From: Thermoanaerobaculia bacterium
Lineage (GTDB): Bacteria; Acidobacteriota; Thermoanaerobaculia; Multivoradales; UBA5704
Length of the DNA: 60,622 bases
Reading direction: 5' to 3'
Assembly: GCA_035308185.1 (NCBI GenBank)
Contig: DATGHG010000186.1
Coordinates: forward strand, 1-60,622
In this document: piece by piece, positions 7,614 through 44,041 of the stretch
Position numbering within the stretch: the first letter of the stretch is position 1
How the letters are laid out: each line of letters opens with the position of its first letter
The notes under the pieces: model-generated
Database searches by the model: none
Told to the model about the DNA's origin: nothing
What the model saw: only the letters and a program-made list of their open reading frames with translations
Program-made: the position numbers and the translations under genes

Positions 7614-10600
7614 ATGGATGCGTTCCTGAATGAGATCAAGCAACCCGCGACCTGCGGCGCCCGCCGCCGGCATGGTGCCCGCAGGGGCGGCGCTGTCCGC
7701 GGCGGCCGCGGCGCGCGCGGCCTGCTCGGAGCCGTTGCCGTCCTCGCCGTCCTTGCCGTTCTCGCCGGCACGGCGGCCGCCGTGCCGGCGCATGCGGCGC
7801 CGCCCACCGGCGCCGCTGCCGCGCCGGCCGCGAAACCGGCAACGGCCGCCGGTCCCACCACGCCCGCTACCGGTGTCGGCGCGGTGGGCGCGGTGGGCGC
7901 GGTGGAGATCGACTCCTACTCGTTCGGCGGCCTCGCGGCGCGAGCCATCGGCCCGGCGGCGACCGGCGGCCGCATCGCGGCGATCGAGGCCGTGGCGGAC
8001 GAGCCGCTGACCGTCTACGTCGGCGCCGCCGGCGGCGGCGTCTGGCGGTCGCGGGACGGCGGCACCACCTTCCATCCCGTCTTCGACGATCACGTCCAGT
8101 CGATCGGCGCCATCACCGTCGATCCCGGCAACGCCAAGACCGTCTGGGTGGGCACCGGCGAATCCTGGACCCGCAACAGCGTCGGGGTGGGCGACGGCAT
8201 CTACCGCTCGACCGACGACGGCGACCACTGGGAGCACATGGGCCTCGAAAACTCGGAGCGGATCGCCCGCATCCGGGTCGATCCCCATGACGGCAACGTC
8301 GTCTATGCCTGCGTCACCGGTCACCTGTGGGACGACAGCGAGGAGCGCGGCGTCTACAAGACCACCGACGGCGGCAAGACCTGGAAACGGAAGCTTTACG
8401 TCAACCCTGGCACCGGCTGCTCGGACCTGGCGATGGATCCTCAGGAGCCGCGCATCCTCTACGCCGGCATGTGGCAGTTCCGCCGCTATCCCTGGGCCTT
8501 TCGCTCCGGCGGCCCGGGCAGCGACCTGTACAAGAGCACCGACGGCGGCGAGACCTGGCGGCCGCTGACCCGCGGCCTGCCGGCCGGGCAGAAGGGACGC
8601 ATCGCGGTGGCGATCGCGCCGTCGCGCTCGGCGGTGGTCTACGCCCTGGTCGAGAGCCGCAACACCGCGCTCTACCGCTCCGACGACACCGGCGAGACCT
8701 GGACCGAGGTCAACTCCTCGTTCAACGTCCAGGTGCGGCCGTTCTACTTCGCGCGGATCGTCGTCGATCCGGCCGATTTCAACACCGTCTACAAGCCCGG
8801 GCTGTTCCTGACCGTGAGCACCGACGGCGGCAAGTCGTTCAACTCGCCGTTCGCCGGCGGCGGCCCGGGCGGCCCGCACAGCGATCACCACGCCCTGTGG
8901 ATCAACCCCAAGAACCCGCACCAGATGCTGCTGGGCACCGACGGCGGCGTCTACCTGTCGTTGGATCAGGCGCATACCTGGCGCTACCTCAAGGCCCTGC
9001 CGGTGTCGCAGTTCTACGAGGTGAGCTTCGACATGGCGCAGCCCTACGACGTCTATGGCGGGCTGCAGGACAACGGCTCGTGGACGGGGCCCTCGCGTGG
9101 GGCCGGCGGCGGCATCACCAACGACGAGTGGCACAACATCGGCGGCGGCGACGGCTTCTACGCGGTGAGCGACCCCGCCGATCCCGACGTCGTCTACGTC
9201 GAGTTCCAGGGCGGACACGCGTCCCGCATGTCGCTGGCGACGCGGACCAGCAAGGACATCCAGCCGCTGCCCGGCACCGGCGATCCCGAGCTGCGCTACA
9301 ACTGGGACACCCCGATCGTGGTCAGCCCGACGCGGCCGGGCACGGTGTACATCGGCAGCCAGTTCCTGTTCCGCTCGCGCGACCGCGGCGACTCGTGGGA
9401 GCGCATCTCGCCCGATCTGACCACCAACGACCCGCACAAGCAGCAGCAGGGCACCTCGGGAGGCCTGAGCATCGACAACTCGAGCGCCGAGACCTACACC
9501 ACGATCTTCGCCATCGCCGAGTCGCCCAAAGACGCCAACGTGATCTGGGTCGGGACCGACGACGGCAACCTGCAGCTGACCCGCGACGGCGGCGGTTCCT
9601 GGGCCAACGTCGGGCGTGCCATCCCGGGCCTGCCGCCGGGCACCTGGGTGTCGAAGATCGAGGCCAGCCGCCGCGACGCCGCGACCGCCTTCGCGACTTT
9701 CGACAACCATGCCAACGGCGACATGAAGACCTACGTCTACAAGACGGTGGACTTCGGTAAGACCTGGCAATCGCTGGCCGGGCCCGGCGTCGCCGGCTTC
9801 GCGCACGTGGTGCGCCAGGACCTCGACAACCCCGACCTGCTGTTCCTGGGGACCGAGGCCGGCCTGTTCATCTCGATCGACGGCGGCGGGCACTGGGCGC
9901 GTTTCACCGGCAACCTGCCGCCGGTTGCGGTGTGGGACGTGCAGATCCATCCCCGCGAATCGGACCTGATCATCGCCACCCACGGGCGGGGCATCTACAT
10001 CCTCGACGACATCACGCCGCTGCGCAAGCTGACCCCGGAGGTCCTCGCCGCCGACCTGGCGTTGCTGCCCTCGAAGCCGGCATCGATGGTGTTGCCGGTC
10101 TTCCTGCAAGCGTTCCCCGGGGACGAAGAGTTCGTCGGCACCAACCCCGAGGAGGCGGCCTCGATCTGCTACTACCTCAAGAAGCGGCACATCCTGGGCG
10201 AGCTCAGGGTCGAGGTCTACGATGCCGACGGCAAGCTGCTATCGACCCTGCCGGGCGGCAAGCGTCGCGGCATCAACCGCGTCGCCTGGCCGATGCGGCT
10301 GAGCGGTCCCAACTTGCCGCCGGCGAATTCGCTGATCATCGATCAGCCGGCCCTGTTCATCGGACCGCGGGTGCTGCCGGGCACCTACTCGGTGAAGCTG
10401 ATCGACGGCGACCGGACCTTCACCACCCAGGTCAGCCTCACGCCGGACCCGCGCTCGAAGGACACCGACGAGGATCGGGCGCTGCAGCACCGGACCGTGA
10501 TGACCCTGTACGCCATGCTGGGGGACCTCACCTACACCGCCGACGCCCTGGTGGACGTGCGTGATCAGGCGCGGCAACGCGCCGCTGGCCTGGCGGCCGG

Positions 10601-10994
10601 CGCGCCGCTGCGTCGCGAGCTCACGCGCCTGGCGGATCAGCTCGACGCCCTGCACCAGCAGCTGGTGGCGACCCACGAGGGCGGCTGGCTCTCCGGCGAG
10701 GAGGAGCTGCGCGAGAAGATGGGCAGCCTCTACGGGTCGGTCAACGGTTTCGAGGGCCGGCCGACCCGCTCGCAGCTCGACCAGGTGAAGGTGGTCAAGG
10801 CGCGGCTCGACGACATCGCCGCCCGCGTCGACGCCGTCGAGAAGGGTCCGCTGGCCCAGGTCAACCGCGGTCTGGCGGCGGCGAAGCAGCCGCCGATCGT
10901 GGTGCTGGACCGCAAGGCATGGGACAAGAAGCAGGAAGCGGGCGGCGGCGCGGGCGGCAAGCTCGACCCGCGCGCGCTGGCAGCGATGCCGTGA
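7614..10994 (+). CDS. BNR/Asp-box (sortilin/VPS10-type) repeat protein, secreted, 1126 aa
   Basis: AAGGAGGG lies upstream of ATG 7614. It carries repeated Asp-box motifs: WRSRDGGTTF, YRSTDDGDHW, YKTTDGGKTW, YKSTDGGETW, YRSDDTGETW, SIDGGGHW. Confidence 0.85.
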   Translation: MDAFLNEIKQPATCGARRRHGARRGGAVRGGRGARGLLGAVAVLAVLAVLAGTAAAVPAHAAPPTGAAAAPAAKPATAAGPTTPATGVGAVGAVGAVEIDSYSFGGLAARAIGPAATGGRIAAIEAVADEPLTVYVGAAGGGVWRSRDGGTTFHPVFDDHVQSIGAITVDPGNAKTVWVGTGESWTRNSVGVGDGIYRSTDDGDHWEHMGLENSERIARIRVDPHDGNVVYACVTGHLWDDSEERGVYKTTDGGKTWKRKLYVNPGTGCSDLAMDPQEPRILYAGMWQFRRYPWAFRSGGPGSDLYKSTDGGETWRPLTRGLPAGQKGRIAVAIAPSRSAVVYALVESRNTALYRSDDTGETWTEVNSSFNVQVRPFYFARIVVDPADFNTVYKPGLFLTVSTDGGKSFNSPFAGGGPGGPHSDHHALWINPKNPHQMLLGTDGGVYLSLDQAHTWRYLKALPVSQFYEVSFDMAQPYDVYGGLQDNGSWTGPSRGAGGGITNDEWHNIGGGDGFYAVSDPADPDVVYVEFQGGHASRMSLATRTSKDIQPLPGTGDPELRYNWDTPIVVSPTRPGTVYIGSQFLFRSRDRGDSWERISPDLTTNDPHKQQQGTSGGLSIDNSSAETYTTIFAIAESPKDANVIWVGTDDGNLQLTRDGGGSWANVGRAIPGLPPGTWVSKIEASRRDAATAFATFDNHANGDMKTYVYKTVDFGKTWQSLAGPGVAGFAHVVRQDLDNPDLLFLGTEAGLFISIDGGGHWARFTGNLPPVAVWDVQIHPRESDLIIATHGRGIYILDDITPLRKLTPEVLAADLALLPSKPASMVLPVFLQAFPGDEEFVGTNPEEAASICYYLKKRHILGELRVEVYDADGKLLSTLPGGKRRGINRVAWPMRLSGPNLPPANSLIIDQPALFIGPRVLPGTYSVKLIDGDRTFTTQVSLTPDPRSKDTDEDRALQHRTVMTLYAMLGDLTYTADALVDVRDQARQRAAGLAAGAPLRRELTRLADQLDALHQQLVATHEGGWLSGEEELREKMGSLYGSVNGFEGRPTRSQLDQVKVVKARLDDIAARVDAVEKGPLAQVNRGLAAAKQPPIVVLDRKAWDKKQEAGGGAGGKLDPRALAAMP

Positions 10995-35719: not shown

Positions 35720-35752
35720 TTGACACCACCCCTGGTAAGACGATATCTTACC
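35720..35752 (+). promoter_or_regulatory. Promoter with an overlapping inverted-repeat operator upstream of vapB
   Basis: TTGACA-N18-TATCTT. The inverted repeat GGTAAGA-cgata-TCTTACC (35734..35752) overlaps the -10. Confidence 0.5.
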
Positions 35753-35756
35753 AAGC

Positions 35757-35987
35757 ATGAAGACCGCCGTCTCTACCAAGGGCCAGATCGTGATTCCGGC
35801 GGAGATCCGTCACCAGGACGGCATCGAGCCGGGGCAGGAGTTCGAGATCGAGCGCCTCGATCGCGGTGACTACCGGCTGAAGCGACTCACGCCGCCCAGG
35901 AATCACGGTCTGCTGGAGTGGCTCCTGGCCTGCCCCGAGAAGGGCTTCTTCGTGCCCATCGATTCCGAGTCCACGGACACGCTTTGA
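35757..35987 (+). CDS. vapB: AbrB/SpoVT-fold antitoxin (VapB-like)
   Basis: MKTAVSTKGQIVIPAEIRHQDGIEPGQEFEIE. Confidence 0.85.
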   Translation: MKTAVSTKGQIVIPAEIRHQDGIEPGQEFEIERLDRGDYRLKRLTPPRNHGLLEWLLACPEKGFFVPIDSESTDTL

Positions 35988-36391
35988 CGGTCCTGGTCGA
36001 CGCGAACGTCCTCAGCGAGGCGGCGAGGCCCGAACCCGACGCCAGGGTCCTGGCGTGGCTGGCTCGTCACGAGCCGGAGATCGCCGTCGACCCCGTCATT
36101 CTCGGCGAGATCCGTTTCGGCATCCTGCTGCTGCCGATCGGGAAGCGTCGCGCACGCTTGGAGCAGTGGTTCCACGACGGCATCCAGAGGATCTACTGCA
36201 TCCCATGGGAGGCTGCGACGGGCCTGCGTTGGGCTCGACTCCTCGCCGAACTGCGTGCCGGCGGCCGCTCGATGCCGATCAAGGACAGCCTGATCGCGGC
36301 GACGGCCCTGACCCATGGCTTTGCGATCGCGACCCGCAACCGGCGCGACTTCGCGCCGGCAGGGGTCGAGATCGTCGATCCGTTCGCCTGA
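35984..36391 (+). CDS. vapC: PIN-domain toxin (VapC-like)
   Basis: TTG start overlaps the vapB TGA (TTGA). LVDANVL..., DPVILGEI, KDSLIAATAL and TRNRRDF give the PIN acidic-residue pattern. Confidence 0.85.
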   Translation: MTVLVDANVLSEAARPEPDARVLAWLARHEPEIAVDPVILGEIRFGILLLPIGKRRARLEQWFHDGIQRIYCIPWEAATGLRWARLLAELRAGGRSMPIKDSLIAATALTHGFAIATRNRRDFAPAGVEIVDPFA

Positions 36392-36429: not shown

Positions 36430-37350
36430 CTACGGGCAGGTGAGCGCGCTGGTGTCCTGCTCCGGCGGCGCTGGCGTCAGGTCGATGTTGCTGTAGGTGG
36501 CCTGGTGCCCGGTCTTGGTGTCGGTGACGTTGACCTTGAAGCCGACGTTGGTGCCGGCCGAGTAGAACACCCAGAACCTGTTGTTGACCGGACAGCCGTT
36601 GAACACCTTGATCAGCATCTCCGGATTCGTGGGGCTGAAGAACCAGAAGATGCCGCCTTCGGTGATGCCGAGGGAGGCCAGGGGGATGGCGCCGCCGTTG
36701 CCCGAGCTGCCGCCGCCCTGGCTGGTCGCGAAAGTGGTGGTGATCTGGAAACGCTTGTCGCCCGGCAGGTCGTCGATGCACAGGGTCTGGCCGTTGGCCA
36801 CGCAGCCCGGAGGTCCGGTGGTGACGTTGTCGGTGATGGTGGTGGCGACGCTGATGCCGTTCGGCGTCGTCGAGGTGCCGACGGTCTCCTCGTCACCGGC
36901 GCAGACGTCGGTCTGAAGGTTGAAGTTCACTCCGCCGGGTCCGCTCACCAGACCGTGAGAGAAGAACACCGTGTCACCGGAGGTGAAAGCCGGATCCGCG
37001 AAGGTCCAGGTCACCGCCGTGTCGGTGCCGTTCGCCAGCGTCAAGGTCTTGCTGAGCGTGGCGCCGATCTGCGGTCCGGTCGGCGAGCCGTCGTGGGCGG
37101 TCAAGGTCAGCGAGTACATGCCGTCCGTGTCGGTCGTGTAATAGATCAGCACGGTGTGAATGTTGGTCGCATGTAAGTTCTGCACGAAGAAATCATTGAA
37201 AATCGAATCGTGGTTGCCGTTGTCGCCCGAGCTGGGGCAGCTGAAAACCGTCGTCACGCCGGCCTGCAGCGGCGCGACGGCGGCGAGCAGGATGGCCATC
37301 GCCAGCGCCGGCGCCAGCAGCCGGCGGTCCAATCGCAGCGCTCCGTCCAT
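36430..37350 (-). CDS. Secreted hypothetical protein
   Basis: It has a signal peptide (LAMAILLAAVAPLQAG). The body is rich in Thr, Gly and Asn. The C-terminal module is LCIDDLPGDKRFQITTTF...GGIFWFFSPTNPEMLIKVFNGCPVNNRFWVFYSAGTNVGFKVNVTDTKTG. GC is visibly lower than in the flanks. Confidence 0.75.
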   Translation of the reverse strand: MDGALRLDRRLLAPALAMAILLAAVAPLQAGVTTVFSCPSSGDNGNHDSIFNDFFVQNLHATNIHTVLIYYTTDTDGMYSLTLTAHDGSPTGPQIGATLSKTLTLANGTDTAVTWTFADPAFTSGDTVFFSHGLVSGPGGVNFNLQTDVCAGDEETVGTSTTPNGISVATTITDNVTTGPPGCVANGQTLCIDDLPGDKRFQITTTFATSQGGGSSGNGGAIPLASLGITEGGIFWFFSPTNPEMLIKVFNGCPVNNRFWVFYSAGTNVGFKVNVTDTKTGHQATYSNIDLTPAPPEQDTSALTCP

Positions 37351-38478: not shown

Positions 38479-40749
38479 CTACATGAAGTGGAACACCAGC
38501 GTGCCCCGGAAAGAACGGCCGTTCAGGCGATAGAACTGCTCGGGCCCCAGCTCGCTGGCGGCGATCGGCGCCCGCGAGTCGTTCAGGTTCCAGCCGTCGA
38601 GACGCGCCTCCCAACCGGCGAAGCGGTAGCTGACTCCCGCCGACCAGGTCGCATAGGACGCCGCCAGCGCGGTGTTCTCCGGGTCGAGGAAGCGGCTGCC
38701 GGTGTAGTTGATCGTCGCCCAGCCGGAGATTCCGGACGCCGGCCGGTAGACGAGACCCAACGCCGCCAGGTCGTGCGCCGACAGCGGCAACCGGTCGCCG
38801 GCCAGCTGCTCGAGCACGCCGTCGTCGGAGAGCGCCAGGAAATCGGTGTACTTGGCGTCGTGGTAGCTGTAGGTGCCCTGCAGCCGCAGGTCGCCGGCCA
38901 GGCGGTAGTCGGCTTCGAGCTCGATCCCCTTGAAGCGCTCCTTGCCGGCATTCACCAGCTCGGGATTGCCGAACTGGTCGACCTGCCCCACCACCAGGTT
39001 GCTGAAGTCCATCTGGAAGAGGCTCGCCTCCCAGTCGAAGCGGCCGCCCAGGTGCCGGCCCTTGAGGCCGAGCTCGAAGCTCTGGGAGGTCTCCGGCTTG
39101 AGGATGACGCCGTTGACGTCCGGGCCGAAGTCGAGCGCCGCCGGCTTGAAGGTGTTGCGGTAGTCGCCGTAAGCCCAGATCGCGCCGTCGGAGTTCTCCC
39201 AGGTGAGGTAGCTCAGGCCGGCGGCGCCGCTACCGCGGGTGACGGTGCGGCTGGCGCTGCCGGGGCCGACCGAGACGTCCTTGGCGATCGCGGCTGGCGG
39301 CGCCGAGACGGCGCCGGCGCTCAGCGGCAGCGCCGCCGGCACCAGGTTGACGGAGGTGGCGACGAGGCTCTCGTGGGTGTGGTTGAGACGGGCGCCGACA
39401 TGCACCCGCCAGCGGCGTTCCGGCGTCCACTCGGTCTGCGCGTAGAGGCCCGCGAAGCTGCGGGTGTCGTGCAGGTCGGTGGTGCCGAACGGCGAGAAGG
39501 TATTGATGTCCGGAGGATTGGTGCCGTTGACGTTCTGGAAGTAGTCCCAGTCGCCGGAGGCGTTGTGCGACTTGCCGTACAGCTCGTCCACGCCGGTGAT
39601 CAACCGCAGGTCGCGGTTGAGGTCCAGCGCCAGGTGGGAGTCGAAATAAAGGTCGTCGAGGTCGAGGTGCTGCCGGATGCCGTGATCGTCCGGGTTGTCG
39701 CCGGTCACGTTCTCGAGAAAGCCGCGCCCGACCGTCTGATCGGTGTGAGCGCCGGAGATCAGCGTCGACCAGGTGCCGGCCGAAAGCTTCTGATCGAAGC
39801 CGAGGTTGAGCTGCTGGCGGTTGACGTCGACCTTGTCGTTGAGCGGGTTCTGGTTGCTGTCGATCGGCACCAGCGACGTCAGCTTGCCGTCGACCAGCGG
39901 CGTCGGGCTGAACGGCTGCTGGTCGACGATCGCGTCGTCGAAATCGACGTGGAAGGTGCCGCCCGCGGCGGTGGCCAGGCTGCCGCGGTAGAGCAGGTGG
40001 CCGCGACCCCAGCCGGTGCGGTCCTGGCTGAAGCCCTGCTGCTCGCCGTTGACGATCAGCGACTGCTGGTAGCTGCCGAGCGCCGGCAGCGGTGAGCTGG
40101 CGGCGCCGCCGCCCGAGCCGTAGCTGCCGCCCCAGGCGCTGACGCTGGCTCCGGGCGCGCCCGGTTGACGGTGGATGATCTGGATGACGCCGACGAAAGA
40201 GGTGGCGCCGTACATGACCGGCGCCGAGCCGCGCAGCACCTCGATACGATCGATGTCGGTCAGGTCGAGCGTCGAGAGCGCCGGGTTGAACGCGCCTCCC
40301 CAGGGCACTCCGTCCACCACCAACAGGAAGGCGTCGAACTCGCGCAACCCCCAGATCTCCGGGATGGAGCTGGCGGAACCGGCGTCGCCGCCCTGGGCGA
40401 TGGTGACTCCCGCGACGTTGGACAGGGCGTCCGCGAGGGTGGTGGCGCCGCGCGCCCTGATGTCCTCGCCGGTGACGACGGTGACTGAGGCGGGTACCGA
40501 CTCGACGTCCTCGGGGACGCGCGTGGCGGTGACCTGGATGGTTTCGGAGACGGCGGGCGCGCCGTTGGCAACGGCGGGGGTCTGATCCTGGGCGGCGGCG
40601 GGCGGCTGTGCCGTCGCCGGCGTCGGGTGGGAAAGGCATGCGACCGCCACCAGGGCGGCAATGGGCAGCACGGCGGCCGGCAGGCGACGGCCCGCGGCAA
40701 TCGGGAAACGCATGGCAGACCTCCTCGAAAGCGAACGCCCCGCAACCAT
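38479..40749 (-). CDS. TonB-dependent receptor
   Basis: It has a signal peptide and a plug domain (TIQVTATRVPEDVESVPASVTVV..., IDRIEVLRGSAPVMYGATSF), followed by a long beta-barrel with alternating aromatic residues. Confidence 0.9.
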   Translation of the reverse strand: MVAGRSLSRRSAMRFPIAAGRRLPAAVLPIAALVAVACLSHPTPATAQPPAAAQDQTPAVANGAPAVSETIQVTATRVPEDVESVPASVTVVTGEDIRARGATTLADALSNVAGVTIAQGGDAGSASSIPEIWGLREFDAFLLVVDGVPWGGAFNPALSTLDLTDIDRIEVLRGSAPVMYGATSFVGVIQIIHRQPGAPGASVSAWGGSYGSGGGAASSPLPALGSYQQSLIVNGEQQGFSQDRTGWGRGHLLYRGSLATAAGGTFHVDFDDAIVDQQPFSPTPLVDGKLTSLVPIDSNQNPLNDKVDVNRQQLNLGFDQKLSAGTWSTLISGAHTDQTVGRGFLENVTGDNPDDHGIRQHLDLDDLYFDSHLALDLNRDLRLITGVDELYGKSHNASGDWDYFQNVNGTNPPDINTFSPFGTTDLHDTRSFAGLYAQTEWTPERRWRVHVGARLNHTHESLVATSVNLVPAALPLSAGAVSAPPAAIAKDVSVGPGSASRTVTRGSGAAGLSYLTWENSDGAIWAYGDYRNTFKPAALDFGPDVNGVILKPETSQSFELGLKGRHLGGRFDWEASLFQMDFSNLVVGQVDQFGNPELVNAGKERFKGIELEADYRLAGDLRLQGTYSYHDAKYTDFLALSDDGVLEQLAGDRLPLSAHDLAALGLVYRPASGISGWATINYTGSRFLDPENTALAASYATWSAGVSYRFAGWEARLDGWNLNDSRAPIAASELGPEQFYRLNGRSFRGTLVFHFM

Positions 40750-40864
40750 GGCGGAGGCGCCGGAGATTGACGCGGCGGCACCGCGGCGCGGCAGCTCGGG
40801 CGACGAGCTGGCGCCGCGGCGGCGGCGGTGTGAGACGGCGTCGATCGCGAGCGGGAGGAGGGGT

Positions 40865-41713
40865 CTACTCGTTCAGCCGGCTGGTCTGCAGCATCCTGTC
40901 GATCGGCGGCAGGGTTTCGTGCCGCTCGAGCCGCGGGGCGGCCGCGGTGGTGCGGGGTGGGGAGCCCCAGGGGGCTCGCCGCGCCGGCGCGGGCGGCTCG
41001 GTTCGCGCCGGCCTGCCGGCCAGCGTCGCCGGCTCGCGAGCGAGCTCGGGCTCGCGCCAATCCCCGTCGAGAGCCGGGAACACGGCGACCATCTGGCGTC
41101 GTGCGGTGTCGCGCCGCGATCCTTCCGCCCAGACGGTGACGCCCTGGTCGCCGGGGCGCGCCGCCTCGCCAGGGTGCGGGGCGAGCACCGCGCGCGCCGC
41201 TAGGGTCGGCGGCAGCGCAATGGTCGCCGGGTTCGCCGGATTCGCCGGGATCGCGGTGTTCGCCGGGATCGCCGGGGTCGTGGTGAGGGCGCTGATCGGG
41301 GTGCCTGGCGAGATGGTGAAGCGCTGCGGCAGCTCGATCACGGTCTCGCGGCGCTCGTCGCCGAAGCGCAGCAGTAGCCGCACGTCCGCCGAGGCGGTGT
41401 CGGGCACGTCCCAAAGGACCTGCCGGAGATCGCTGTCGAGATGGGGGGTGATGCGGAAGCCGTAGCTCTTGCCGCCGTCGAGCGAGAGGAACGCCTCCCA
41501 TTCCTCGCTGGCCGGCAGGGCCGCCAACCCGGGGCGCGGCGCCCACTGCAGGACCGCTTTCGCGCCGGCGACGAGCGGGATGGCCGCCTGCGGCGCCAGC
41601 AGCTCGATCGCCGGCCCGGCCGGCGGCGCCGCTGCCGCCCCCGCGGCAGCGGGGGAGTGGGCGACGGCGGCCACCATCACCGCCGGCAGCAGCCAGCCGG
41701 GAAGCGTCCTCAT
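40865..41713 (-). CDS. Secreted hypothetical protein (Ig-like N-terminal module, Pro/Ala/Thr-rich linker)
   Basis: The start is taken at MRTLPGWLLPAVMVAAVAHSPAAA (signal). The segment VLQWAP...EEWEAFLSLDGGKSYGFRITPHL...VLWDVPDTASADVRLLLRF is beta-sandwich-like. Confidence 0.6.
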   Translation of the reverse strand: MRTLPGWLLPAVMVAAVAHSPAAAGAAAAPPAGPAIELLAPQAAIPLVAGAKAVLQWAPRPGLAALPASEEWEAFLSLDGGKSYGFRITPHLDSDLRQVLWDVPDTASADVRLLLRFGDERRETVIELPQRFTISPGTPISALTTTPAIPANTAIPANPANPATIALPPTLAARAVLAPHPGEAARPGDQGVTVWAEGSRRDTARRQMVAVFPALDGDWREPELAREPATLAGRPARTEPPAPARRAPWGSPPRTTAAAPRLERHETLPPIDRMLQTSRLNE

Positions 41714-41829
41714 GGGCCCGATTACTTTACCACCCGCCCCCGCCCCCGCCACCGGCGAGCCGTGGCAAGCGGCGGTAGTGGGTCAGTTCGAACCGTGGCA
41801 GCCGGCGGGCCGCCCCGGCTGAGGCGAGG

Positions 41830-41859
41830 GGGGCCGGGCTCCCCGCTACGCCCGGCCCC
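41830..41859 (-). terminator. GC-rich hairpin just downstream of the small peptide gene
   Basis: GGGGCCGGG-(11 nt)-CCCGGCCCC begins about 13 nt after the TGA. There is no U-tract, so it may be a stabiliser or an attenuator rather than a classic terminator. Confidence 0.35.
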
Positions 41860-41871
41860 TTCCGTCTGCCT

Positions 41872-42036
41872 TCAGTCGCATCCGTGGCAGCTGCAGGTGC
41901 CCTTGTAGGTGGCCGTGGTGCACGTGCAGGAGCAGGCGGTCGCCGCCGTGACCCCGCCGGCAGCCTGCTGGAGGACGGACAGCTGCAGCAGCGTCTCGCG
42001 GTTGAGGTGGATGGTGGCCTGCCGTTGCTTCTTCAT
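41872..42036 (-). CDS. 54-aa peptide with a Gly-Gly leader-like N-terminus and a Cys/Ser/Thr-rich C-terminus
   Basis: MKKQRQATIHLNRETLLQLSVLQQAAGG-VTAATACSCTCTTATYKGTCSCHGCD. GGGGAGGA lies 7 nt upstream of ATG 42036. GC3 is very high, consistent with native coding. The 77-aa track ORF extends upstream without an RBS. Confidence 0.6.
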   Translation of the reverse strand: MKKQRQATIHLNRETLLQLSVLQQAAGGVTAATACSCTCTTATYKGTCSCHGCD

Positions 42037-42060
42037 GACGGATTCCTCCCCGGGATCCGA

Positions 42061-42108
42061 CATCGGCACCGGTGCCGATGCTGGCTGAAAGAGTGGTGCC
42101 GGCACACC
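42061..42108. promoter_or_regulatory. Perfect 20-bp palindrome plus a related near-palindrome in the leader of the peptide gene
   Basis: CATCGGCACCGGTGCCGATG at 42061..42080 and GGTGCCGGCACACC at 42095..42108. Both are built from GGCACC/GGTGCC half-sites. Confidence 0.4.
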
Positions 42109-42186
42109 GGCGATCCGGCATTCCGCTCGCCCTTCGCGGCGACGACGGGTATTGCCCTCAGGATGCCGCCCCGGCGGCGGCGGTGA

Positions 42187-43317
42187 TCAGCGGGAGGCGC
42201 AGGCTTCGATCTCGAGGTCCTGTGCCGGCGCGCCGCCGTCCTCGCGCCGCTCGCCGCCCTGGCGCGCGGCGCCGCCGGCAGAAGCGCTGGTGATCAGCGC
42301 CACGCCGCCGAGGATGATGGCGGCGCCGGCCAGCATGCCGGCCGTGACCGGCTCGTGCGCCATCGCCCAGCCGAGGAACACCGCCACCACCGGGTTGACG
42401 TAGGCGTAGGTCGACACCAGGACCGGCGAAGCCGAGCGCAGCAGCCAGGTGTAGGCGGTGAAGCCGATCAGCGAGCCGAAGACGATCAGATACAGGACCG
42501 CCAGCGCCGAGCCGGTGGACACCTGCGACAGCGCCAGGTGCGCCGGCTCGCCGGTCAGCGCGCCGGCGGCGAAGAGCAGGACGCCGCCGCACAGCATCTG
42601 CATGGCGGTGGCGAGCAGCGGCGATCTCGGCAGCGTGGCGCGCTGGACGTACAGCGAGCCCGCCGCCCAGCTGACCGACGCGATCAGCACCGCCACCACG
42701 CCCAGCCGATCGACGGCGGCGCCGCCGGCGTGACCGGGCCGCACCAGCAGCACCAGGCCGGCCATCCCGACCAGCAGGCCGGCGACGACGCGCGGCCCGG
42801 GGCGCCTGCCGCCGCGTCGCAGCCAGGCGAACAGCACGATCCACATCGGCTCCGAGCAGATCAGCAAGGCCGCCATGCCGGAGCTCACCCGCTGCTCCGC
42901 CCACACCACGCCGCCGTTGCCGAGCAGCAACAGCAGGCCGCCGATGATCGCCGTCGAGCGCCAGTGCTCGAGCCGCGGCCGCGGGGCGCCGCGCAGCCGG
43001 GCGAAGGCGTAGAGCAGGACGCCGGCGGTGAAGTGGCGGGTGGCGGCCATGGTGAAGGGCGGGATGGTGGCGATCGCCAGGCGCATCGCCAGGTAGGTCG
43101 AGCCCCACAGCACGTAGACCGTGACCAGGGCGATGGCGACGTGCAGCATCGGCGCCGCGGCGGCGGCGGGAGCGTTCGCCGACGCCGTGGGCGCGGTCGG
43201 CGCCATGGTTGCGGGCGCCGCCGCGAGCGCTATCTTCGCGGCGGCCGAGGTTGCCGCGGCGGGTGAGGTGCCGGTGCCGGCCGCGGCTGCCGCGGTGCCC
43301 GCTCGTTCGGCGGTCAC
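42187..43317 (-). CDS. EamA/DMT-family transporter
   Basis: LWGSTYLAMRLAI... with 10 TM helices and duplicated EamA halves. The Ala-rich N-terminus suggests the true start is nearer MLHVAIALV. Confidence 0.85.
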   Translation of the reverse strand: MTAERAGTAAAAAGTGTSPAAATSAAAKIALAAAPATMAPTAPTASANAPAAAAAPMLHVAIALVTVYVLWGSTYLAMRLAIATIPPFTMAATRHFTAGVLLYAFARLRGAPRPRLEHWRSTAIIGGLLLLLGNGGVVWAEQRVSSGMAALLICSEPMWIVLFAWLRRGGRRPGPRVVAGLLVGMAGLVLLVRPGHAGGAAVDRLGVVAVLIASVSWAAGSLYVQRATLPRSPLLATAMQMLCGGVLLFAAGALTGEPAHLALSQVSTGSALAVLYLIVFGSLIGFTAYTWLLRSASPVLVSTYAYVNPVVAVFLGWAMAHEPVTAGMLAGAAIILGGVALITSASAGGAARQGGERREDGGAPAQDLEIEACASR

Positions 43318-43928
43318 GGGACCTCCCCCGCCAGGGTGACGAGCGCCGCGGCGTGGTGGTCGCCGGCGGTTTCGAGGGCTGCCGCGGCGGCTGCCGTCTC
43401 GGCGGCGGTCCGGCCAGCCGCCGCCAGGTCGGTGGTGGTGCCGACGGCGGTGCCGGCATCCAGCGGGCCGGCGTCGAGCGGCAGGTGGGTGGTCTCGTGC
43501 AAGGTCTCCAGCACGATGGTGGTGCGGGTCGAAGTGAGATTGGCGCTGGCGGCGAAGCGCTCGCGGAGCAGCCGCCCCAGGCTGCGAGCGTCGCGGACCC
43601 GCGCCTTGACCAGGAAGCAGTCCTCGCCGGCGAGATGGTGGACTTCCTGCACCTCGTCGATCCGGGCCAGCATCTCACCGGTGCTCAGCTCGCCGCCGAT
43701 GTCTCGGGTGCGCACGAAGATATAGGCGAGGAGGTTGAGGCCCAGGGCCTCGGGATCGATTCGCACCTCGTAGCCCCTGATCACGCCGCGGCTCTCGAGC
43801 TTGCGGATACGCTCCAGCACCGCCGACGGCGCCATGTGGATCTGCCGCGCGATCTCGGCGTTCGAAACGCGGGCGTTCTGCTGAAGGATCGTCAGGATCT
43901 CGCGGTCGGTAGCGTCGATCATGCGCAT
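43314..43928 (-). CDS. Lrp/AsnC-family transcriptional regulator with an Ala/Thr-rich tail
   Basis: DREILTILQQNARVSNAEIARQIHMAPSAVLERIRKLESRGVIRGY plus a RAM domain. 4-nt overlap with the EamA start. Confidence 0.9.
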   Translation of the reverse strand: MRMIDATDREILTILQQNARVSNAEIARQIHMAPSAVLERIRKLESRGVIRGYEVRIDPEALGLNLLAYIFVRTRDIGGELSTGEMLARIDEVQEVHHLAGEDCFLVKARVRDARSLGRLLRERFAASANLTSTRTTIVLETLHETTHLPLDAGPLDAGTAVGTTTDLAAAGRTAAETAAAAAALETAGDHHAAALVTLAGEVP

Positions 43929-44041
43929 TTTCCTCCCGGAGAGAGACGATAGCTGACCCGAAAAGCGATTGCAAGCACTTCGTCGGCAACAGCGTAGCAA
44001 AGCCGAACGAACGTCGGCGCTTCGGCGTCAATTGCGCTGAA

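What the first reader, a model, noticed from the sequence alone, without database searches (positions are those of the whole stretch)
41872..42036. Stand-alone 54-aa peptide with a double-glycine-type leader and a Cys/Ser/Thr-rich core
Seen in the sequence: MKKQRQATIHLNRETLLQLSVLQQAAGG|VTAATACSCTCTTATYKGTCSCHGCD. It has a strong RBS (GGGGAGGA, 7-nt spacer) and near-saturated GC3. A GC hairpin follows the stop, and palindromes sit in the leader region. After the GG, 15 of 26 residues are Cys, Ser or Thr (6 Cys, 7 Thr, 2 Ser), plus one His.

Established knowledge: the N-terminal pattern (L-N-x-E-T-L ... G-G, with Leu at -7 and -12) resembles double-glycine leaders of bacteriocins, lanthipeptides and other ribosomally made natural products. 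C/S/T-dense cores are typical substrates for lanthionine, thiazole/oxazole or radical-SAM chemistry.

An alternative reading is a small Cu/Zn-binding, metallothionein-like or chalkophore-like peptide. It has CxCxC and CxCxxC motifs and lies on the same strand as, and upstream of, a secreted protein and a TonB-dependent receptor.

No LanM/LanB, YcaO, rSAM or C39-peptidase ABC transporter gene is in the window, so any maturation machinery is either remote or novel.
Basis: partly seen in the sequence, partly recalled or inferred. Interest (0 to 1): 0.65.

Follow-up and report, generated by a model that had tools for sequence, protein, structure and literature searches.

The report
Orphan class I lanthipeptide precursor gene
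This small gene most likely encodes the precursor of a lanthipeptide, a known kind of ring-containing modified peptide. It is one of about fifty scattered copies in this soil Acidobacteriota genome, all with the same leader but different cysteine/threonine-rich cores, and its modifying enzymes lie elsewhere in the genome.

Summary
Its codon-position GC is coding-like. It has a GGGGAGGA ribosome-binding site, a 10-bp GC hairpin after the stop and a 20-bp palindrome upstream.

It is not a singleton. About 50 paralogs in the same genome, and 0-86 per related genome, share the leader MKK..LxLx(R/K)ETLRxL..AAGG, followed by hypervariable cores. This is the LxLxKx5L/Gly-Gly leader already described for class I lanthipeptides (Walker 2020; NCBIfam NF038153).

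- In relatives, family members sit in canonical clusters: HlyD, C39-ABC exporter, 4 precursors, LanC, LanB.
- The own genome has orthologs of all these on other contigs.
- Of 41 related genomes, all 25 with the peptides carry the conserved LanB, against 1 of 16 without them.

The neighbouring secreted protein and TonB receptor form an older conserved pair. Sister species lack the peptide gene at this site, so the metallophore reading is rejected.

Verdict: a new member of a known kind, in a large lineage-specific, mostly unclustered expansion. No chemistry or expression was tested. This scan has noted similar scattered class I precursor families before, on other DNA.

The parts
41872..42036 (-). 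Precursor peptide gene (LanA-type), 54 codons plus stop
   Evidence: Translation. GC3 is 0.93. The identical ORF is called on 6 metagenome contigs. Leader-profile scores are E=5.8e-9 and, with this peptide left out of the profile, 2.7e-5.
41953..42036 (-). Leader peptide, residues 1-28: MKKQRQAT-IHLNRETLLQL-SVLQQAAGG. It carries I9-x-L11-x-R13-x5-L19, a conservative variant of LxLxKx5L, and ends in G27-G28.
   Evidence: Alignment A1 consensus MKK...KLxLxRETLRxL....L..AAGG. The motif is described in PMC7268733. NF038153 hits on paralogs.
41875..41952 (-). Predicted core peptide, residues 29-54: VTAATACSCTCTTATYKGTCSCHGCD (6 Cys, 9 Ser/Thr)
   Evidence: Sequence. The core is 62% identical to that of homolog P0002, ending in the same YK.TCSCHGCD, with 4 synonymous and 1 non-synonymous change in the last 11 codons.
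42044..42051 (-). Ribosome-binding site GGGGAGGA, 7 nt before the ATG
   Evidence: Sequence. Most paralogs shown have an AAGGAG/GGAGG-type site at the same distance.
41830..41859 (-). GC-rich hairpin (10-bp perfect stem, 10-nt loop) 13 nt after the stop; a putative terminator without a T tract
   Evidence: Inverted repeat I2. It is not called by the T-tract terminator scan. Visual inspection suggests GC-rich inverted repeats downstream of a number of paralogs; this was not tested.
42061..42080 (.). Perfect 20-bp palindrome CATCGGCACCGGTGCCGATG, 25 nt upstream of the ATG; function unknown
   Evidence: Inverted repeat I4. It occurs once in the genome and is not shared by paralog upstream regions.
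41767..42181 (-). Lineage-specific segment of about 415 bp holding the whole peptide gene with its RBS, palindrome and hairpin. Sister species have about 45 bp between the EamA stop and the next gene here.
   Evidence: Alignments with L037. No family peptide lies at this site in G003, G004, G006, G007 or G008.

Best explanation
The ORF is a real gene for a class I lanthipeptide precursor (LanA) of the LxLxKx5L / Gly-Gly leader type. It is an unclustered ('orphan') copy.

1. The 28-residue leader is recognised in trans by the genome's single conserved full-length LanB dehydratase (contig C384). LanB glutamylates Ser/Thr of the 26-residue core and eliminates to dehydroalanine/dehydrobutyrine.
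2. One of the stand-alone LanC cyclases adds the six Cys thiols to these residues, giving up to six (methyl)lanthionine rings.
3. A C39-peptidase ABC exporter (contig C414), with a HlyD-like partner, cuts after G27-G28 and exports the product.

The gene is one of about 50 paralogs with the same leader and hypervariable cores scattered over the genome. The system therefore works like the prochlorosin libraries of cyanobacteria, but with class I enzymes. The flanking EamA, secreted-protein and TonB-receptor genes are unrelated bystanders.
For: Shown:
- The gene is coding-like, with an RBS and a hairpin.
- There are about 50 paralogs in the own genome, and 0-86 per genome in 41 relatives.
- The leader matches the published class I motif.
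- NF038153 lant_leader_L1a is the top NCBIfam hit for 10 of 10 paralogs and homologs, 2 of them over the cut-off.
- A relative, G027, has a canonical cluster: HlyD/GAF, C39+ABC, 4 family peptides, LanC, LanB.
- Family peptides lie within about 3 kb of a LanC gene at 15 or more loci in 13 genomes. In the own genome these are on C368 and C477.
- The own genome has orthologs of all cluster parts: the exporter (58.6% identical), a HlyD-like protein, LanC and LanB (46% identical).
- All 25 genomes with peptides have the conserved LanB of about 1150 aa. It is intact in 21 and fragmented in 4. Only 1 of 16 genomes without peptides has it.
- Ser+Thr is at least equal to Cys in 49 of 49 cores, and Cys counts show no strong even-number bias (30 even, 19 odd).
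- The LanM genes of this genome have their own adjacent precursors with a different leader. Genomes with no LanM-sized LanC-like hit among those listed (G010, G018, G022) still hold 26-36 peptides.
- The core is conserved in homolog P0002 with mostly synonymous changes.
Against: - No modifying enzyme lies in the 60-kb window.
- The window peptide itself gets no NF038153 hit. It ranks 43rd of the 50 significant family hits when left out of the profile.
- The genomes compared are kin, so the phyletic match overstates independence.
- Most copies are far from any LanC, so some may be unmodified, modified otherwise, or decaying.
- The LanB/LanC pair on C384 has no family peptide adjacent to it. The nearest copy (10518-10715) is about 6 kb away behind housekeeping-type genes.
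Confidence: 0.7

Rival explanations
1. It is an unmodified (or only disulfide-bonded) double-glycine bacteriocin-like peptide. The C39-ABC transporter exports and cleaves it, and no lanthionine is formed. The shared leader serves export only.
For: - The copy has no adjacent LanB or LanC.
- Six Cys is an even number.
- GG leaders are primarily export and cleavage signals.
- The exporter ortholog exists.
Against: - The leader carries the LxLxKx5L element specific to class I LanAs, not only the GG site.
- 39% of family cores have odd Cys counts, and all have enough Ser/Thr partners.
- The family tracks LanB phyletically and sits beside LanC at many loci.
Confidence: 0.12
2. It is a precursor for a different RiPP chemistry that uses the same leader type, such as a radical-SAM (TIGR04149-like or ranthipeptide-like) or MNIO modification.
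For: - Weak secondary hits of three paralogs and homologs to TIGR04149 GG_sam_targ_CFB.
- The genome has 5 SPASM-domain genes and one MNIO gene.
- The Cys/Thr-rich core resembles SCIFF-type substrates (from my own knowledge).
Against: - None of the SPASM or MNIO genes lies on a contig with a family member.
- The MNIO gene has its own adjacent signal-peptide protein.
- NF038153 always outscores TIGR04149.
- No YcaO gene was found.
- No recurrent neighbouring enzyme other than LanC was found.
Confidence: 0.06
3. It is a metal-binding peptide (metallothionein- or chalkophore-like) that works with the EamA exporter, the downstream secreted protein and the TonB-dependent receptor.
For: - CxCxC and CxCxxC motifs plus one His.
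- It lies on the same strand as an exporter and an outer-membrane receptor.
Against: - EamA, the secreted protein and the receptor are syntenic in five same-genus genomes, and the protein-receptor pair occurs in further genomes of the order. All lack the peptide gene.
- Homolog P0002, with the same core ending, lies next to an HExxH peptidase-like gene and a porin-like gene instead.
- Paralogs have no recurrent transporter or receptor neighbours.
Confidence: 0.04
4. It is a recently inserted, non-functional or decaying copy of the family: transcribed weakly or not at all, and never matured.
For: - It is lineage-specific at this site.
- It is a divergent family member.
- No promoter-like site was detected.
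- No expression data exist.
Against: - The frame is intact, with a strong RBS, a hairpin and GC3 of 0.93.
- It is identical in strains differing by 1% elsewhere.
- Its core is conserved in P0002 with synonymous substitutions.
Confidence: 0.08

Closest known systems
Class I lanthipeptide precursors with the LxLxKx5L...Gly-Gly leader (Walker et al. 2020, PMC7268733; NCBIfam NF038153 lant_leader_L1a; pinensin-type clusters of Bacteroidota)
   Same: - The leader architecture, the GG cleavage site and the Ser/Thr/Cys-rich core are the same.
- Relatives' clusters contain LanB, LanC and a C39-ABC exporter.
   Different: - The host is Acidobacteriota, not Bacteroidota.
- This copy is unclustered, and the family is expanded to about 50-86 copies per genome beside one conserved LanB.
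- The window peptide scores below detection with NF038153.
- The motif is a conservative variant (Ile for the first Leu, Arg for Lys).
Prochlorosins / SyncA libraries (class II; ProcM or SyncM with Nif11- or NHLP-type leaders) of marine cyanobacteria
   Same: There are dozens of precursor genes with a conserved leader and hypervariable cores. Most are scattered far from the synthetase, which implies a substrate-tolerant enzyme acting in trans (SyncM abstract).
   Different: - The enzyme class differs: LanB plus separate LanC rather than a fused LanM.
- The leader family differs. The peptide has no Pfam hit at all, so none to Nif11.
- Many extra stand-alone LanC genes, some paired with particular precursors, have no counterpart in the cyanobacterial systems.
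- The LanM genes of this genome use other precursors.
TIGR04149 GG_sam_targ_CFB peptides (radical-SAM-modified GG-leader peptides of Bacteroidota)
   Same: The N-terminal leader pattern is similar, with weak hits for 3 of 10 paralogs and homologs.
   Different: These hits always score lower than NF038153. No rSAM gene is linked to the family in this genome.

Membership tests
Class I lanthipeptide precursor, LxLxKx5L/GG leader type (NF038153) | Leader motif L-x-L-x-K-x5-L | tested here: met
   I9-H-L11-N-R13-ETLLQ-L19, a conservative variant with I for L and R for K. The family consensus is KLxLxRETLRxL. The motif is defined in PMC7268733.
Class I lanthipeptide precursor, LxLxKx5L/GG leader type (NF038153) | Leader ends in Gly-Gly (a C39 cleavage site) | tested here: met
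   A25-A26-G27-G28. G27 is conserved in at least 90% of the alignment rows.
Class I lanthipeptide precursor, LxLxKx5L/GG leader type (NF038153) | Score at or above the curated cut-off (22 bits) of NCBIfam NF038153 | tested here: not met
   The window peptide has no NF038153 hit at E<=10. For 10 paralogs and homologs it is the top hit, with 2 over the cut-off (25.3 and 27.0 bits) and 8 below it (13.9-21 bits). The window peptify joins the family through the lineage's own leader profile (E=2.7e-5 with this peptide left out).
Class I lanthipeptide precursor, LxLxKx5L/GG leader type (NF038153) | Core holds Cys and at least as many Ser/Thr | tested here: met
   The core has 6 Cys and 9 Ser/Thr. The same holds for 49 of 49 family cores.
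Class I lanthipeptide precursor, LxLxKx5L/GG leader type (NF038153) | LanB dehydratase and LanC cyclase encoded with the precursor | tested here: inconclusive
   None lies in the window. Both are present in the genome on other contigs: LanB and LanC on C384, further LanC on C368, C477 and C343. Other family members are adjacent to LanC, or to LanC and LanB, in this and related genomes. All 25 genomes with peptides have the LanB, against 1 of 16 without peptides.
Class I lanthipeptide precursor, LxLxKx5L/GG leader type (NF038153) | C39-peptidase ABC exporter | tested here: met
   The exporter on C414 (780 aa) carries Peptidase_C39. It is 58.6% identical to the exporter encoded in the G027 cluster. 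It is not in the window.
Class I lanthipeptide precursor, LxLxKx5L/GG leader type (NF038153) | (Methyl)lanthionine thioether rings in the mature product | not testable with these tools
   This needs mass spectrometry or NMR of the native or co-expressed peptide.
Prochlorosin-type class II library (ProcM/LanM with Nif11/NHLP leader) | Nif11- or NHLP-type leader; LanM as the modifying enzyme | tested here: not met
   The peptide has no Pfam hit. The four LanM genes each have a nearby precursor with a different 'RAWKDPEYR...' leader; three were seen on C297, C189 and C345. Genomes with no LanM-sized LanC-like hit among those listed still carry 26-36 family peptides.
Methanobactin/chalkophore-type metallophore (MbnA with MbnB/MbnC) or metallothionein | Precursor linked to an MNIO (DUF692) enzyme and a dedicated TonB-dependent uptake receptor | tested here: not met
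   The only MNIO gene is on contig C27, with its own neighbouring protein. The adjacent TonB receptor and secreted protein are conserved in relatives that lack the peptide.
TIGR04149 rSAM-modified GG-leader peptides | HMM score over the cut-off (25 bits) and an adjacent radical-SAM/SPASM maturase | tested here: not met
   The window peptide has no hit. The best paralog score is 20.8 bits. SPASM genes lie on contigs without family members.

The most novel reading that the evidence does not exclude
One family of soil Acidobacteriota runs a class I counterpart of the prochlorosin system.
- A single conserved LanB dehydrates 50-86 hypervariable precursors that share one leader.
- A variable set of stand-alone LanC cyclases, some paired with particular precursors as LanA-LanC satellite modules without a LanB, sets the ring patterns.
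- New precursor genes arise as self-contained units of about 0.4 kb (RBS, ORF, hairpin) in intergenic DNA. The window copy is one such unit, absent from sister species.
Probability: 0.45. Interest if true: 0.6.

Novelty: new member of a known kind. Interest (0 to 1): 0.4.

Why it matters
The peptide's class, leader type and enzymes are already described, so the gene itself is an ordinary if unannotated member.

Three things are worth noting:
- **Scale and layout.** There are dozens of unclustered precursors per genome beside one LanB, in a phylum with few cultured members. The papers found in my searches did not describe such an expansion for class I lanthipeptides.
- **Enzyme tolerance.** If the in-trans model holds, this LanB would be a naturally substrate-tolerant class I dehydratase. 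That would be useful for peptide engineering and for asking why bacteria keep such peptide libraries.
- **Genome mining.** Cluster-based mining tools that look only near enzymes would be expected to miss nearly all of these genes.

Tried and rejected
- **Direct family searches.** Pfam and NCBIfam scans of the peptide gave nothing useful.
- **Protein-database search.** A search of 5.8 billion proteins found only the peptide itself and one 57%-identical homolog.
- **Selection across metagenome contigs.** This had no power. The six contigs are 99.0-99.99% identical to the window and the ORF is identical in all.
- **Recurrent neighbours.** Proteins within 7 kb of the 53 paralogs showed no shared enzyme or transporter family. 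The one recurrent cluster is a secreted C-terminal domain with 37 tblastn matches on 30 contigs, so it is likely chance.
- **Shared promoter or operator.** No strongly shared upstream motif (only weakly enriched 6-mers) was found among 48 paralog upstream regions. The 20-bp palindrome is unique to this locus.
- **Mobile-cassette test.** The 461-bp segment has no DNA-level similarity beyond noise to any other place in the genome, and no terminal repeats were seen.
- **LanM as the enzyme.** Rejected, because the LanM genes have their own precursors with another leader.
- **YcaO, MNIO and rSAM routes.** No YcaO gene was found. The one MNIO gene and the five SPASM genes are not linked to the family.
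- **Literature.** Searches for an expanded class I precursor family in Acidobacteria found nothing specific.

Full report
**1. Observation**

The ORF exists with exactly the reported translation, on the minus strand at 41872-42036.
- The window averages about 72% GC. The ORF's GC by codon position is 0.53/0.58/0.93, the pattern of real genes here. The two overlapping ORFs show 0.83/0.61/0.61 and 0.80/0.62/0.66.
- GGGGAGGA lies 7 nt before the ATG.
- A perfect 10-bp GC stem (41830-41859) follows the stop. It has no T tract, so the simple terminator scan does not call it.
- A perfect 20-bp palindrome lies at 42061-42080.
- Independent gene callers called the same 54-aa product on six metagenome contigs from ENA, JGI and Logan, all with the same neighbours.

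**2. Surroundings**

On the same strand lie an AsnC/Lrp regulator (43314-44000), an EamA/YedA-type exporter (42187-43317), the peptide, a protein of about 285-295 aa with no Pfam match (40865-41713/41752) and a TonB-dependent receptor (38479-40749). No lanthipeptide, YcaO, rSAM or C39 gene lies on this contig.

**3. It is one of a large family**

Six-frame searches with the peptide gave 17 weak matches in its own genome and many in relatives.
- The matching ORFs share a leader, consensus MKK...KLxLxRETLRxL....L..AAGG, followed by unrelated Cys/Thr-rich tails.
- A leader profile finds 53 ORFs in the own genome. That assembly has 524 contigs and is 85.6% complete.
- A profile built without the window peptide still scores it E=2.7e-5 against all 82,337 ORFs, ranking 43rd of 50 significant hits. 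It is a genuine but divergent member.
- Most copies shown have an AAGGAG/GGAGG-type site at the right distance from the start.
- Mean pairwise identity is 41% in the leaders and 22% in the cores.
- Cores average 27 residues, with 16.7% Cys, 16.4% Thr and 7% Ser. The leaders have 0.3% Cys.

**4. What kind of leader**

Walker et al. 2020 describe an LxLxKx5L motif in class I lanthipeptide leaders of Bacteroidetes. Many of these end in Gly-Gly, with a C39 protease in the cluster (PMC7268733).
- The window peptide has I9-x-L11-x-R13-x5-L19 and ends in G27-G28.
- NCBIfam NF038153 (lant_leader_L1a, 'class I lanthipeptide') is the top hit for all ten paralogs and homologs tested. Two are over the cut-off.
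- The window peptide itself gets no hit. Strict HMM membership is therefore not met for this copy, and its assignment rests on the lineage-specific profile and the motif.

**5. Link to enzymes**

The own genome has twelve LanC-like matches.
- Four LanM-sized genes lie on C297, C189, C63 and C345. Two were checked with Pfam and have DUF4135 plus LanC-like domains.
- Stand-alone LanC genes lie on C368, C477, C384, C343, C445 and C63.
- One full-length LanB lies on C384 next to a LanC. Other LanB-like genes lie on C233 and C279.
- C39 exporters lie on C63 and C414.
- The LanM genes have their own adjacent precursors with a different 'RAWKDPEYR...' leader, so they are not the likely partners.
- Family peptides flank the LanC on C368 on both sides and abut the LanC on C477.

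In a relative of the same order (G027, locus L023), four family peptides sit in a textbook cluster: HlyD/GAF protein, C39+ABC exporter, 4 precursors, LanC, LanB. The own genome has orthologs of each part:
- exporter on C414, 58.6% identical over 707 aa;
- HlyD-like protein on C466;
- LanC on C384, C343 and C477;
- LanB on C384, 46% identical over 1157 aa.

**6. Phyletic test**

In 41 related genomes the family has 0 to 86 matches per genome.
- All 25 genomes with peptides carry the conserved LanB of about 1150 aa. It is intact (E below 1e-140) in 21 and fragmented in G005, G013, G020 and G024.
- Of the 16 genomes without peptides, only G029 has it.
- Genomes with a single family member keep it next to the enzymes. 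In G002 the peptide, LanC and LanB lie within 7 kb on C91. In G017 the peptide abuts the LanC on C46.
- Peptide and LanC lie within about 3 kb at 15 or more loci in 13 genomes.
- G010, G018 and G022, which show no LanM-sized LanC-like hit among those listed, still hold 26-36 peptides.
- These genomes are kin, so the counts are not independent.
- In an even sample of 120 other genomes of the phylum, only 4 have any match. The expansion is therefore lineage-specific.
- In the 3-contig congener G001, matches lie megabases from the single strong LanB. The scatter is thus not an assembly artefact.

**7. Core chemistry clues**

Ser+Thr is at least equal to Cys in 49 of 49 cores. Cys counts are 30 even and 19 odd. 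This fits thioether formation better than obligatory disulfide pairing, though it proves nothing.

**8. The local context is a bystander**

The only hit of the neighbouring protein in the named-genome collection is a MAG titled 'uncultured Acidobacteriota bacterium', which gives the phylum.
- That locus keeps PGK, TsaD, AsnC, EamA, the secreted protein, the receptor and TauE in the same order. It has about 45 bp where the window has about 415 bp with the peptide gene.
- G003, which appears to be the same record as that MAG, and four further congeners keep EamA, the protein and the receptor without a family peptide.
- The protein and receptor are found adjacent in several more genomes of the order.
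- The closest homolog, P0002, is 57% identical overall and 62% in the core. It ends in the same YK.TCSCHGCD but lies between an HExxH peptidase-like gene and a porin-like gene.

The exporter/peptide/receptor logic proposed for this window is therefore not supported.

**9. Selection**

The six metagenome contigs are too close (99.0-99.99%) to be informative. Between the window gene and P0002, 13 of 33 conserved residues use different synonymous codons. The last 11 codons show 4 synonymous changes and 1 non-synonymous change. This indicates constraint on the peptide sequence.

**10. Mechanism and its status**

The gene, the family, the leader type, the presence of the enzymes and the co-occurrence are shown. 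Recognition of this leader by the C384 LanB in trans, cyclisation by a LanC, cleavage after G28 and export are inferred. The function of the product (antimicrobial, signalling or other) is unknown.

**11. Comparison and novelty**

It works like the prochlorosin and SyncA libraries but does not belong to them, because it has a different leader and class I enzymes. It is best filed as a divergent member of the known class I LxLxKx5L/GG precursor type.
- This scan has already noted scattered or unclustered class I precursor families on other DNA.
- Literature searches found no description of this Acidobacteriota expansion.

**12. Limits**

Noticed in passing
window 38479-41752 (- strand): A secreted protein of about 285-295 aa with no Pfam match and the TonB-dependent receptor after it form a conserved adjacent pair. 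The pair is seen in most of the 13 related loci examined across the order, and it is independent of the peptide. The pair's ligand is unknown.
   Followed up: partly
window 36430-37350 (- strand): A 306-aa secreted protein with no Pfam match ends in a domain of about 120 aa (…TLCL..RF.V…W…G.FWFF…N.E..VKV.DGC..N..WVF..G.TNV…TVTDT…C(P/T)). This domain has 37 tblastn matches on 30 contigs of the genome, fused to very different N-terminal parts.
   Followed up: partly
G000 contigs C368:28118-29973 and C477:6681-8000; also G013:C8, G006:C66, G012:C156, G024:C23: Satellite modules consist of one or two family precursors directly beside a stand-alone LanC, with no LanB nearby. This suggests dedicated cyclases that rely on the single LanB in trans.
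   Followed up: partly
G000 contigs C297:20619-20837, C189:664-885, C345:26361-26594: Three of the four LanM (class II) genes have an adjacent precursor with a different leader (M.K...R.W.D..YR..L...E...LP..PA...L.D..L). This is a second, separate lanthipeptide system in the same genome. The LanM on C63 sits with a C39 exporter and an extra LanC.
   Followed up: partly
window 42061-42080: The perfect 20-bp palindrome CATCGGCACCGGTGCCGATG lies between the EamA stop and the peptide's RBS. It occurs once in the genome and is not shared by paralogs. It may be an operator or an RNA hairpin.
   Followed up: partly
G000 contig C27:5041-6464: The genome's single MNIO (DUF692, MbnB/TglH family) gene lies next to a 145-aa protein with a signal-like N-terminus. 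This is a separate candidate RiPP or metallophore system, unrelated to the finding.
   Followed up: no
window about 35750-36385: A PIN-domain and MazE-like toxin-antitoxin pair is annotated on the matching metagenome contigs, just beyond the 306-aa protein.
   Followed up: no
G000 contig C445:16746-20334: A stand-alone LanC-like gene (475 aa) lies about 1 kb downstream of a 371-aa gene. It has no family peptide nearby. The gene content was not annotated further.
   Followed up: no
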